IMG/VR virus record: IMGVR_UViG_3300010399_000003
Span: 1 to 48,852 of that record
Source: a virus
Length of the DNA: 48,852 bases
Strand: one strand, 5' to 3'
Shown: positions 11,236 to 12,139 of the stretch, piece after piece
Numbering within the stretch: the first letter of the stretch is position 1
Layout of the letters: each line of letters opens with the position of its first letter
Position numbers and translations under genes: made by a program
Notes under the pieces: model-generated
The model's database searches: none
What the model was told of the DNA's origin: nothing
Seen by the model: only the letters and a program-made list of their open reading frames with translations

Positions 11236-11311
11236 CTTTACACCGTAAAGACAGATGCTTAACCGGACAAGGTGCATGCTTGAGCGGTTTCGCTCGTAAA
11301 TACTTGTGAAT

Positions 11312-11471
11312 AAAGGACTTATAGTCGTCAGAAACCGCTAAATTACTTAAGAATTCTTGACGTTTTCGGACCGTTTCGACGACCCGTAACTTATTGAAAA
11401 CAAAGGACTTAACCCCGTAGGGGACCGAGGTGGCGTCATCAAAATGAGGCGTAGAAAAAGCAAAAGTCCTT
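11312..11471. repeat. AAGGACTT iteron-like repeats in an AT-rich non-coding region
   Basis: AAAGGACTTA at 11312-11321 and 11402-11411, and the inverted copy AAAAGTCCTT at 11462-11471. The neighbourhood also has three TTGACG (11357, 11537, 11560) and recurrent CGTAA pentamers. Confidence 0.5.
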
Positions 11472-11598
11472 GATTACAGAAACGTAATGCCCGCTAAAGC
11501 CTTATTTTACTAGGGTTTGCGACGCAAGAAATATTTTTGACGCAAATTACAGGCGTTTTTTGACGGCCGTAAACCGTTCTAAATAGGCGTGTTACGGT

Positions 11599-11615
11599 GA
11601 TTTCCAAAACTTAGC
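11599..11615 (+). promoter_or_regulatory. GATTTCCAAA(A)CTTAG motif copy (function unknown)
   Basis: GATTTCCAAAACTTAGC, a variant of the 18-mer also found at 13681, 14683, 17364 and 20760. Confidence 0.4.
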
Positions 11616-12139
11616 GCATTTTCGGCCCTATACTTGTTCCAGGCGCTGTCGTGTTAAGCGCCTCGCGGTTGGGGACGGGTGCGCCGTAGTTGCTGGTTAC
11701 CGTCGGGAGACGGAAGCTAGTTAGCTCGAGCTCATGAAGCACCAGAAGGCCAATCGTGATGAAGCCGGATTGGTGTAGGGCCGTCTGGCGGCTGTGTTCA
11801 AGCGCGGGGACCAGGAGCGTTTCCGTAGGCAGATTCGACAAGCCGCTGCCAGCGCGTTCATCCATCTTAAGCCTTGGGGCTGCCGGCCCTCAGAGAGTCT
11901 GTGGCCTATCCCTTCAGGTGGGAGCCTAACGGCTGGCTGTTTAGCTGGGTCAATGTTAATGGGTGTAGCAAACCCGCTCTCGTTACTGTGGTCGTCCTGG
12001 TGGTTTCACCGGGTTCGTTCGCGGTCTAGGAGGAAAAATCGCCCGCCTAAAATCTACCCGAAATAAATGTGTCCTAGAGCCCACAATCTGCGGCTGCGCG
12101 ACGATAGGTAGAGGGACGGCGGTCTAACCTTAGCCGACC

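What the first reader, a model, noticed from the sequence alone, without database searches (positions are those of the whole stretch)
11236..11620. AT-rich non-coding segment with iteron-like repeats: candidate replication origin or regulatory hub
The 5' half of the ORF-free region is visibly more AT-rich than its surroundings. It carries:
- AAAGGACTTA twice in direct orientation (11312, 11402), 90 bp apart, plus an inverted copy (11462-11471)
- three TTGACG hexamers (11357, 11537, 11560)
- at least five CGTAA pentamers (11243, 11294, 11385, 11482, 11567) and an inverted one (11592)
- the palindrome TTGCGACGCAA (11516-11526)
- A/T tracts

It sits between the replication-type genes (exonuclease, SNF2 helicase, possible SSB) and the ligase/UvrD region. 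That placement and repeat architecture resemble phage origins or multi-operator control regions.
Basis: partly seen in the sequence, partly recalled or inferred. Interest (0 to 1): 0.5.

Follow-up and report, generated by a model that had tools for sequence, protein, structure and literature searches.

The report
Conserved phage intergenic protein-binding repeat array
The AT-rich stretch is a real, evolutionarily conserved cluster of short protein-binding repeats sitting just upstream of a promoter in an uncultured soil phage; it most likely switches on the next block of genes, and nothing specifically marks it as the replication origin.

Summary
Window 11236-11620 is non-coding, has 42.6% GC against 52.6% for the window, and carries the listed repeats.

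Only some repeats are meaningful. The CGTAA pentamers extend to the hexamer CYGTAA/TTACRG: 6 copies against 0.6 expected. The same hexamer clusters at the syntenic position in five other diverged lineages of this uncultured soil-phage clade. AAAGGACTTA is the right arm of a ~27-30-bp bipartite element (CYGTAA-N4-TTGnn-N4-AAAGGRnTTA) that the relatives also carry. The TTGACG hexamers and the palindrome are weak and lineage-specific.

The segment is the upstream half of a conserved ~1-kb module:
- an upstream-operon terminator hairpin;
- the AT-rich repeat array;
- an invariant TATAMT box;
- a 5' hairpin with covarying stems and a conserved loop;
- a G-rich box;
- a 280-600-nt GC-rich untranslated leader;
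- small genes.

Relatives with a short array or none have a near-consensus -35 at 17 nt. Lineages with long arrays, including the window, have none. I therefore favour an activator-binding or architectural array controlling a sigma-70-type promoter (about 0.5). An origin (about 0.17) or a terminus/packaging role (about 0.1) is not excluded. No GC-skew switch, significant DnaA-box signal or adjacent initiator gene was found.

The parts
11201..11235 (+). Strong terminator-type hairpin that closes the upstream operon. The stem is CCGGGACCGCCC/GGGCGGTCCTGG, and the tail is a weak U-tract (CUUUACACC).
   Evidence: -32.1 kcal/mol, z = -5.4, reached by 0 of 200 shuffles. An equivalent hairpin follows the last upstream gene in L072, L009 and L071.
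11236..11628 (.). AT-rich repeat array: the finding, extended by 8 nt to the promoter box. It holds six CYGTAA/TTACRG sites, at 11243(-), 11384(-), 11474(+), 11547(+), 11567(-) and 11592(+).
   Evidence: 6 sites against 0.62 in shuffles, reached in 0 of 2000, and the only cluster in the window. The same hexamer is enriched in the syntenic AT regions of L006, L009, L070, L071 and L072.
11295..11321 (+). Bipartite 27-mer, copy 1: CGTAAATACTTGTGAATAAAGGACTTA.
   Evidence: It does not fold as a hairpin, so it is read as a duplex DNA site.
11385..11411 (+). Bipartite 27-mer, copy 2: CGTAACTTATTGAAAACAAAGGACTTA. It contains TAACTTATTGAAA, one mismatch from the IHF consensus YAANNNRTTGATW.
   Evidence: The single IHF-like match is not significant on its own (reached in 100 of 500 shuffles).
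11568..11597 (+). Degenerate third copy, CGTAAACCGTTCTAAATAGGCGTGTTACGG, flanked by an inverted pair of CCGTAA/TTACGG half-sites.
   Evidence: (63% identical to copy 1). L071 carries very similar units, TAAATAGGCCGGTTACGG.
11516..11566 (+). Lineage-specific T-rich plus TGACG repeats: TTTGCGACGCAA, TTTTTGACGCAA and TTTTTGACG.
   Evidence: families D4 and D11. These repeats are not among the k-mers shared by the other lineages.
11629..11634 (+). TATACT, a -10-type promoter hexamer. It is invariant as TATAMT in six lineages. The window has no usable -35 (best is AAAACT, 2 of 6).
   Evidence: In L072 and L217 the same box has TTTACA or TGGACA at a 17-nt spacing, and the promoter scan calls both sites.
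11641..11663 (+). 5' hairpin AGGCGCU[GUCGUGUUA]AGCGCCU at or near the predicted transcript start. The loop is conserved and the stem sequence differs in every lineage.
   Evidence: Stems of 7-8 pairs occur in all five lineages tested, reached by 4 to 152 of 5000 shuffles each. U.G pairs in L006 and L071 are valid only on the + strand.
11677..11685 (+). Conserved G-rich box GGGGACGGG (GGKGACGGG across lineages).
11686..12183 (+). GC-rich leader or spacer with no conserved ORF. It ends in a terminator-like hairpin at 12136-12165 followed by UUCACUUUUCC.
   Evidence: The whole-region fold gives only z = -2.3, with a similar value on the opposite strand. There is no Rfam match.
12184..12239 (+). 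Variable hairpin, then the conserved GCCCGAATGGACGGGCCTGATGAGG, then ATG. This cassette starts the first downstream gene.

Best explanation
Window 11236-11620 is the upstream, protein-binding half of a conserved ~1-kb non-coding control module. The module separates the nucleotide-metabolism/recombination operon (ThyA-like, exonuclease, SNF2 helicase, Pam3_Gp34-like) from the next operon of small genes.

Shown here:
- It is an array of CYGTAA/TTACRG sites in both orientations.
- Two or three of the sites are organised as ~27-30-bp bipartite units (CYGTAA-N4-TTGnn-N4-AAAGGACTTA).
- The array is flanked on the 5' side by the terminator hairpin of the upstream operon.
- It is flanked on the 3' side by an invariant TATAMT box, a covarying 5' hairpin and a long untranslated leader.

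Inferred:
- TATACT at 11629 is the -10 element of a sigma-70-type promoter that lacks a -35 element in this lineage.
- A sequence-specific DNA-binding protein, phage- or host-encoded and possibly helped by an IHF-like bending protein, occupies the array. It recruits or licenses host RNA polymerase, or represses it.
- The array would therefore time expression of the downstream operon.

The binder has not been identified.
For: 1. Conservation of kind and place.
- The module occurs downstream of the Pam3_Gp34-like gene in the window, L006, L009/L010/L011/L037, L071, L072, L070 (cut by the contig end), L212 and L217.
- The flanking protein is only 60-77% identical among the lineages where this was measured, and the DNA cannot be aligned by blastn.

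2. Motif enrichment replicated in lineages not used to define the motif. Counts of CYGTAA against dinucleotide shuffles:
- L009: 10 against 0.89, reached in 0 of 2000.
- L070: 5 against 0.42, reached in 0 of 2000.
- L072: 3 against 0.34, reached in 7 of 2000.
- L071: 3 against 0.46, reached in 21 of 2000.
- CCGTAA and CTGTAA are the two most enriched shared hexamers: 19 against 0.6 and 13 against 0.34.

3. The sites occur in both orientations with irregular spacing, and the 27-mers do not fold. This is typical of duplex binding sites and not of promoters or RNA elements.

4. Operon boundary. A strong terminator-type hairpin lies at 11201-11235, and equivalents are present in relatives.

5. Promoter.
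- TATAMT is invariant in six lineages.
- In L072 and L217 it has TTTACA or TGGACA at a 17-nt spacing, 10 of 12 matches, and the scan tool calls both.
- The hairpin begins about 6-13 nt after the box (6 nt in the window), and its G.U pairs fit only the + strand.

6. Array length against -35 quality.
- Non-coding upstream stretches of 426-552 nt (window, L006, L009, L071) go with 2-3 of 6 matches to the -35 consensus.
- A 181-nt array (L072) and no array at all (L217, 65 nt, 0 sites) go with 5 of 6 matches.

7. Related canonical elements sit upstream of sigma-70-type promoters in other phages.
- L204: four copies, then TTGACG-17-TATTAT.
- L075: one copy, then a promoter.
- Tunturi_3: a 1.66-kb unannotated gap ending in TTGACA-18-TACTGT.
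- Sphaerotilus phage vB_SnaP-R1: one copy upstream of several sigma-70-like TTGACA/TTGCAT promoter sequences, read by eye.
Against: - No binding protein is identified. No neighbouring gene is conserved with the array, and no HU/IHF homologue is encoded in the window.
- The distance from the nearest CYGTAA site to the -10 box varies between lineages (about -40 to -90), so there is no fixed activator geometry.
- The -35 correlation rests on six lineages and was noticed after the fact.
- The promoter scan finds no promoter in the window itself.
- The window's 27-mers score only 5-9.5 bits against the canonical-motif matrix, which is within the range of shuffled sequence.
- Nothing excludes a second role for the same array in replication or packaging.
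Confidence: 0.5

Rival explanations
1. Replication origin. The CYGTAA sites and 27-mers are iterons for a phage initiator. The 30%-GC stretch at 11296-11355 is the unwinding element. Transcription from the adjacent promoter activates or primes initiation, as at the T7, T4 oriF/oriG or lambda origins.
For: - The region is a non-coding AT-rich island holding the second most AT-rich 60-bp stretch in the window.
- It carries clustered repeats conserved across lineages.
- It lies directly after the helicase, exonuclease and SSB/annealing-like gene cluster.
- A G-rich, positively GC-skewed transcript region follows the promoter.
- In the unrelated contig L195, a canonical-motif cluster with many further repeats lies immediately after a Prim-Pol/AAA_25 primase-helicase gene.
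- GATC is absent from the 1,043-bp gap, with about 6 expected.
Against: - There is no GC-skew inflection at 11.3 kb; skew tracks transcription and turns at about 35.5 kb.
- The sites are not tandem, not phased and not co-oriented.
- The only DnaA-like box has one mismatch, about 0.2 are expected by chance, and it is not conserved.
- No initiator or primase gene lies beside the region or was identified among the window ORFs scanned.
- Relative L217 keeps the rest of the module but has no array.
- The AT-richness is moderate (42.6% GC).
Confidence: 0.17
2. Genome-terminus or packaging-associated repeats. The array lies at or next to the physical ends (direct terminal repeat or cos) of a linear genome, as with the CCTAAAG arrays and early promoters at the T7 left end. 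The metagenomic contig merely runs through a collapsed repeat or a concatemer junction.
For: - The canonical relative of the 27-mer lies 34-57 nt from the left end of the linear Sphaerotilus phage vB_SnaP-R1 record.
- Clusters occur near portal or terminase genes in L162, L147 and six other loci.
- The canonical motif is enriched within 300 nt of contig ends: 14 of 48 whole contigs against 3.7 expected.
- Several assemblies of the clade break at the module: L011 and L037 from one sample, L070, L071 and L010.
- The downstream genes are many small ORFs typical of early regions.
- That the T7 left end carries repeated CCTAAAG heptamers is from my own knowledge of Dunn and Studier 1983.
Against: - Five contigs of the window's own lineage run straight through the region.
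- No terminase or portal gene lies nearby; the structural genes are at 35.8-48.8 kb on the other strand.
- Contig ends fall at variable distances (2-267 nt) from the motif, which fits breaks caused by repeats or strain variation as well as true ends.
- The window's copies of the motif are degenerate.
Confidence: 0.1
3. Neutral or hypervariable spacer. The repeats are relics of local duplication, or of insertion by mobile elements or homing endonucleases, and have no sequence-specific function.
For: - The DNA cannot be aligned between lineages.
- HNH or endonuclease VII genes lie beside the module in L070, L072 and L006.
- Module length varies widely.
Against: - The same hexamer is independently enriched in six lineages against both shuffles and flanks.
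- The bipartite unit recurs with the same 12-nt internal spacing in the window, L006, L009 and L029.
- The adjacent box and hairpin show purifying selection and compensatory change.
Confidence: 0.06

Closest known systems
Activator-dependent phage promoters with upstream binding arrays (for example T4 middle promoters with MotA boxes, lambda pRE/pI with cII sites, Mu Pe and lambda pL with upstream IHF sites). This comparison rests on my own knowledge.
   Same: There is a good -10 hexamer with a poor or absent -35. Specific sites lie upstream. The region sits at a boundary between temporal gene classes. The host polymerase is inferred from the sigma-70-type -35/-10 pair seen in relatives L072 and L217.
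   Different: No activator gene is identified. There are 6-10 sites spread over 400-550 bp, not one or two at fixed positions. Spacing to the -10 is not conserved. The site sequence (CYGTAA within a 27-30-bp bipartite unit) matches none of these systems.
Iteron-type phage and plasmid origins (lambda ori, P1 oriR, SPP1 oriL). This comparison rests on my own knowledge.
   Same: Clustered short repeats lie in an AT-rich non-coding island next to replication genes, beside an active promoter.
   Different: Classical iterons are 17-22 bp, tandem, co-oriented and helically phased, and they usually lie within or beside the initiator gene. Here the core is 6 bp, orientations are mixed, spacing is irregular and no initiator is present.
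IHF binding sites (consensus YAANNNRTTGATW / WATCAANNNNTTR). The consensus is quoted from my own knowledge.
   Same: The canonical form of the bipartite element in other phages reproduces the consensus at positions the search pattern did not force: T 37, A 47, A 49 and purine 53 of 68. Exact matches number 4 in L204, 2 in L029 and 1 in L009.
   Different: The window has no exact match and only one 1-mismatch match, which is not significant. The element is conserved well beyond the 13-bp IHF core (CTAAAGGRGTTA and the outer CGTAA/TTACG arms). Most CYGTAA sites have no TTGAT nearby.
Left-end region of T7-like phages: short repeat arrays plus clustered early host promoters. This comparison rests on my own knowledge of T7, and on vB_SnaP-R1.
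   Same: A non-coding region with short repeats containing CTAAAG precedes host-type promoters and small early genes. The canonical motif lies at nt 34-57 of the vB_SnaP-R1 record.
   Different: The window's region is internal to a 112.9-kb contig. No terminal repeat is shown. Genes on both sides run in the same direction.

Membership tests
Iteron-type replication origin | Three or more tandem, co-oriented, helically phased repeats of about 17-22 bp | tested here: not met
   There are two good 27-mers 90 bp apart and a weak third 183 bp further on. The six CYGTAA sites are in mixed orientation with irregular spacing.
Iteron-type replication origin | An adjacent AT-rich DNA-unwinding element | tested here: inconclusive
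   The 60-bp stretch at 11296 has 30% GC, the second lowest in the window. The region overall is only moderately AT-rich, at 42.6% GC.
Iteron-type replication origin | An initiator gene next to or enclosing the repeats, or host DnaA boxes | tested here: not met
   Neighbouring ORFs have no initiator, primase or HTH hits. There is one DnaA-like 9-mer with one mismatch, about 0.2 are expected by chance, and it is not conserved.
Iteron-type replication origin | A strand-composition switch (GC skew) at the site | tested here: not met
   Cumulative GC skew rises steadily through 11.3 kb and turns only at about 35.5 kb, with gene orientation. This is weakly informative for phages.
Iteron-type replication origin | Replication initiates here | not testable with these tools
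   This needs marker-frequency or origin-mapping experiments.
Regulated sigma-70-type promoter with an upstream operator/activator array | A -10 hexamer conserved at a fixed place | tested here: met
   TATAMT is invariant in six lineages within otherwise unalignable DNA.
Regulated sigma-70-type promoter with an upstream operator/activator array | A -35 hexamer at 16-18 nt | tested here: not met
   In the window the best match is AAAACT, 2 of 6. The feature is met in relatives L072 (TTTACA) and L217 (TGGACA) at 17 nt, hence the inferred dependence on an activator.
Regulated sigma-70-type promoter with an upstream operator/activator array | Repeated specific sites upstream, conserved among relatives | tested here: met
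Regulated sigma-70-type promoter with an upstream operator/activator array | An identified regulator that binds the sites, and a mapped transcript start | not testable with these tools
   No candidate gene was found. This needs footprinting and 5'-end mapping.
IHF binding site | A match to YAANNNRTTGATW | tested here: not met
   The window has 0 exact matches and one match with 1 mismatch (11387), reached in 100 of 500 shuffles. The feature is met in L204, L029 and L009.
Known structured RNA family (Rfam) | A covariance-model hit at or above the gathering score | tested here: not met
   No hit at the gathering threshold, and only chance-level hits in E-value mode, for the window gap, the L006 gap and four canonical-motif loci.

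The most novel reading that the evidence does not exclude
The window's 27-mers may be diverged members of a so far undescribed, widespread phage cis-element of about 26-30 bp, yTAAGTTG-TTGATT(C/T)TAAAGGRGTTA, often with outer CGTAA/TTACG dyad arms.
- It occurs in clusters of 3-5 copies within AT-rich islands of many unrelated phage genomes (31-64% GC).
- Cultured examples include an Acidobacteriota phage (Tunturi_3) and a phiKMV-like Sphaerotilus phage.
- It lies at module boundaries: upstream of early promoters, near genome ends, and next to terminase or primase genes.
- If it is one functional entity, for example a composite site for a host architectural protein plus a conserved factor, it would be a general organiser of phage early regions or termini.
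- The CYGTAA array in this clade would then be its lineage-specific elaboration.
Probability: 0.2. Interest if true: 0.65.

Novelty: new variant of a known kind. Interest (0 to 1): 0.42.

Why it matters
- For this uncultured clade of roughly 100-kb soil phages with a thymidine-hypermodification gene set, the region is the clearest non-coding landmark. It gives a conserved, testable control point between two gene blocks.
- The region supplies defined sites (CYGTAA, the 27-mers, TATACT at 11629 and the GUCGUGUUA hairpin) for footprinting, reporter and 5'-end-mapping experiments.
- It would also guide annotation. Gene callers place inconsistent spurious ORFs across the module: 84 aa on the minus strand in the window, 111 aa on the minus strand in L006, and 237 aa on the plus strand in L009.
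- If the link to the widespread canonical motif is real, the element could help locate early regions or termini in metagenomic phage contigs.

Tried and rejected
- **DNA similarity to cultured phages:** no match for 10900-12500.
- **Protein-pattern scans:** the viral-contig scan with a single protein found nothing. With an alignment it gave only distant relatives that lack the module.
- **Metagenome pattern scan for the box-hairpin-GACGGG block:** it re-found only the window (L064) plus chance hits.
- **Genome-collection scan:** one short MAG contig.
- **Rfam:** nothing for the window, for relatives or for canonical-motif loci. No tRNA or tmRNA genes.
- **A large structured ncRNA in 11636-12236:** fold z-scores are only -1.4 to -2.3 and similar on both strands. 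A closing helix around the box and hairpin appears in L072 and L006 but not consistently elsewhere. This was not pursued.
- **Hidden protein gene in the gap:** rejected, because tblastx shows no conservation and codon periodicity is weak.
- **The 27-mer as a sigma-70, ECF or T7-type promoter:** rejected for the window. No -10 lies at a proper spacing, orientation is not conserved, and the element occurs at only one locus in 48.8 kb.
- **LexA, DnaA and IHF readings of the window's sites:** not supported.
- **Phage-encoded HU/IHF/TF1-like protein:** none found in the window.
- **A conserved neighbouring gene as the binder:** none found by blastp.
- **Literature search for the motif strings:** only unrelated primers. 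The Tunturi phage paper (PMC11924767) does not discuss the non-coding region.
- **Formal pair counting on a MAFFT alignment of the hairpin:** abandoned, because loop-length differences put the stems out of register. A direct per-lineage stem test was used instead.
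Full report
**1. Setting**

The window is phage-like, with 52.6% GC. Genes lie on the + strand from 1 to about 35.5 kb and on the - strand after that.

Upstream of the finding lie:
- a ThyA-like enzyme (1899-2960);
- a DnaQ-like exonuclease (3652-4512);
- an SNF2 helicase (4870-6537);
- a Pam3_Gp34-like protein (9652-10413), annotated as SSB or primase in a few distant cultured phages.

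Downstream lie many small ORFs, an HNH protein, an ATP-dependent ligase (16398-17342) and a UvrD helicase (23020-24537).

The window is part of a 112,870-bp soil-metagenome contig. Copies 99.9% identical occur in several samples. No cultured phage is close: there is no DNA match, and proteins are at most about 30% identical.

**2. The observation**

The segment 11236-11620 has 42.6% GC. It is the 5' half of a gap of about 1 kb (11194 to about 12236). tblastx between relatives finds no conserved ORF in the gap, and codon-position GC periodicity is lost there.

- AAAGGACTTA occurs only at 11312 and 11402 in the whole window. It extends to a 27-nt direct repeat, CGTAA-N12-AAAGGACTTA, at 11295 and 11385, with a weak third copy at 11568.
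- The 'inverted copy' shares 8 nt.
- CGTAA as a pentamer is modestly enriched: 6 against 2.0, reached in 28 of 2000 shuffles.
- The extended hexamer CYGTAA/TTACRG is clearly enriched: 6 against 0.62, reached in 0 of 2000 shuffles. This is its only cluster in 48.8 kb.
- The TTGACG hexamers and the palindrome are statistically weak and are not shared by relatives.

**3. Comparative evidence**

Homologues of the flanking Pam3_Gp34-like protein led to contigs from diverged lineages: L006, L009/L010/L011, L070, L071 and L072. The protein is only 60-77% identical across them. Pattern scans added L037, L212 and L217.

The gap DNA cannot be aligned by blastn, yet the architecture recurs:
- (a) a strong hairpin after the last upstream gene (window 11201-11235, -32 kcal/mol, z = -5.4);
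- (b) an AT-rich stretch of 140-550 bp;
- (c) an invariant TATAMT box;
- (d) 13-16 nt further on, the conserved loop GUCGUGU(U)A (or GUUGGGUA(A)) of a hairpin whose stem differs in every lineage;
- (e) GGKGACGGG;
- (f) 280-600 nt of GC-rich sequence without a conserved ORF;
- (g) hairpins followed by a Shine-Dalgarno sequence and ATG.

CYGTAA is enriched in the AT-rich part of every lineage, including four not used to define it:
- L009: 10 against 0.89;
- L070: 5 against 0.42;
- L071: 3 against 0.46;
- L072: 3 against 0.34.

CCGTAA and CTGTAA are the two most enriched hexamers shared by the six regions, at 19 against 0.6 and 13 against 0.34 expected from the flanks. The bipartite unit CYGTAA-N4-T(T/A)GA-N4-AAAGGR recurs with the same 12-nt internal spacing in L006, L009 and L029. 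In L072 and L212 it forms dyads such as CCGTAAGTCCTT-N7-AACGGGTTACAG.

**4. What lies next to it**

The hairpin after TATAMT has 7-8 paired positions in all five lineages tested, and the stem sequence is different in each. Shuffled flanks reach the observed pairing in 4 to 152 of 5000 trials per lineage. Its U.G pairs would be A.C mismatches on the other strand. This argues for an RNA hairpin at the 5' end of a + strand transcript.

TATAMT behaves as a -10 hexamer. In L072 and L217 it is preceded at exactly 17 nt by TTTACA and TGGACA, and the promoter scan calls both at 10 of 12 matches.

In the window, L006, L009 and L071, the best -35 candidates match only 2-3 of 6 positions. These are the lineages with long non-coding upstream stretches (426-552 nt). 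L072 has a 181-nt array. L217 has none: 65 nt and no CYGTAA site. With six lineages this is suggestive and not proof. It is the pattern expected if the array substitutes for a -35 element by binding an activator.

**5. A wider motif**

A viral-contig scan with the bipartite pattern returned 59 loci whose unconstrained positions were far from random. A second scan with only the right half (TTGATTYTAAAGGRGTTA) returned 80 stretches. The upstream bases TAAGTTG emerged unforced, which reproduces the IHF consensus YAA-N3-R-TTGAT-W.

About a fifth of these hits are ordinary ribosome-binding sites in AT-rich genomes. The rest include clusters of 3-5 copies within 100-500 nt:
- L162, near a portal gene;
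- L147, near a terminase gene;
- L195, directly after a Prim-Pol/AAA_25 primase-helicase gene;
- L204, a distant relative of the window's clade, where four copies precede a TTGACG-17-TATTAT promoter.

No neighbouring protein family is shared. Two cultured phages carry the motif:
- Sphaerotilus phage vB_SnaP-R1, at nt 34-57 of the linear record, upstream of several sigma-70-like TTGACA/TTGCAT promoter sequences read by eye;
- Tunturiibacter phage Tunturi_3, in a 1.66-kb unannotated gap with further repeats, ending in a sigma-70-type promoter. The published description does not mention this gap (PMC11924767).

The motif is enriched near contig ends: 14 of 48 whole contigs within 300 nt, against 3.7 expected. 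Either repeats or true termini could cause that.

The window's own copies are degenerate. They are the four best matches to the canonical matrix in the whole window, but at 5-9.5 bits, which is within the range of shuffled sequence. The window has no exact IHF-consensus match. The link is therefore a lead and not a classification.

**6. Weighing the readings**

I favour a regulatory, promoter-upstream array (about 0.5), for four reasons:
- the segment sits at an operon boundary;
- it abuts an invariant -10 box;
- array length anticorrelates with -35 quality;
- the rest of the module persists in L217 without the array.

The origin reading (about 0.17) keeps some appeal: an AT-rich island, repeats, neighbouring replication genes, the parallel with L195, and the absence of GATC. 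It lacks phased iterons, an initiator gene, a significant DnaA-box signal (one 1-mismatch 9-mer, about 0.2 expected by chance) and a skew signal.

A terminus or packaging role (about 0.1) is suggested by the behaviour of the canonical motif and by assembly breaks at the module in relatives. However, contigs of the window's own lineage run through the region, and no packaging genes are nearby. A neutral spacer (about 0.06) is unlikely given the replicated enrichment. About 0.17 is left unassigned for other roles, such as a partition site or a decoy.

These roles are not mutually exclusive.

**7. Verdict**

This is a real, conserved cis-acting region whose binder is unknown. It is a new variant of a familiar kind of element, a phage intergenic control or origin-like repeat array. 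It also has a possible link to a broader motif that has not been described.

Noticed in passing
window 12184-12239 and 21273-21330; L006 6590-10320 (7 copies); L212 1260-3870 (6 copies); L037 and L217 (3 copies each): A recurring intergenic cassette lies immediately before start codons. It consists of a GC-rich hairpin of variable sequence, then the conserved GCCCGAnTnnACGGGCCTGAnGAGG, then ATG. It may be a processing, stabilising or translation element, or a phage-specific promoter. Its RACGGGCC core resembles the GGKGACGGG(CC) box after the 5' hairpin.
   Followed up: partly
window 11629-11685: An invariant TATAMT box is followed by a 5' hairpin with a conserved loop, GUCGUGU(U)A or GUUGGGUA(A), and covarying stems, and then GGKGACGGG. 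The arrangement looks like a promoter followed by a protein-binding RNA hairpin in the manner of lambda nut/boxB. No Rfam family matches it.
   Followed up: partly
window 11194-12236: GATC is completely absent from the 1,043-bp gap. The window as a whole has 287 copies, so about 6 would be expected here.
   Followed up: no
window 1899-2960 and 41910-43214; L007 472-1317; L074 5996-12576: The clade carries a thymidine-hypermodification-type gene set. It includes a ThyA-like dUMP hydroxymethylase (phrog_5131) and a radical SAM enzyme. Relatives also carry a 5-hmdU DNA kinase domain (HMUDK_hel), an aminotransferase and sugar-nucleotide enzymes. The virion DNA is probably modified.
   Followed up: no
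viral contigs L077-L209; PP885686.1 78677-80336; MN844877.1 34-57: A 26-30-bp motif, yTAAGTTGTTGATT(C/T)TAAAGGRGTTA, is widespread and clusters in AT-rich islands of unrelated phages. It is enriched near contig ends. Its reverse complement contains the -10-like hexamers TAGAAT or TAAAAT, and its core equals the IHF consensus.
   Followed up: partly
L212 1-245: About 25 tandem copies of GCCGCCTGGG(G), then four copies of GGCCGGGGCG, lie directly upstream of that lineage's CCGTAA dyads at the start of the held locus.
   Followed up: no
window 43372-43840: Several tandem repeats with periods of 12-63 nt lie inside the 734-aa ORF on the minus strand (43214-45418). That ORF has no family or phage-database match.
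   Followed up: no
window 11611-11865 (-); L006 6026-6361 (-); L009 8874-9587 (+): Automatic gene calls inside the module differ in strand and position between lineages and share no similarity. They are probably spurious.
   Followed up: yes
L011 end (L009 coordinate 9321) and L037 start (about 9276), same sample 3300037070: Two contigs from one assembly end on the same roughly 45-nt stretch inside the second 27-mer of that lineage. That L037's start is the true contig end is inferred, because the contig range was not retrieved. This points to an assembly-graph branch at the repeat array, caused by strain variation, a repeat or a terminus.
   Followed up: partly
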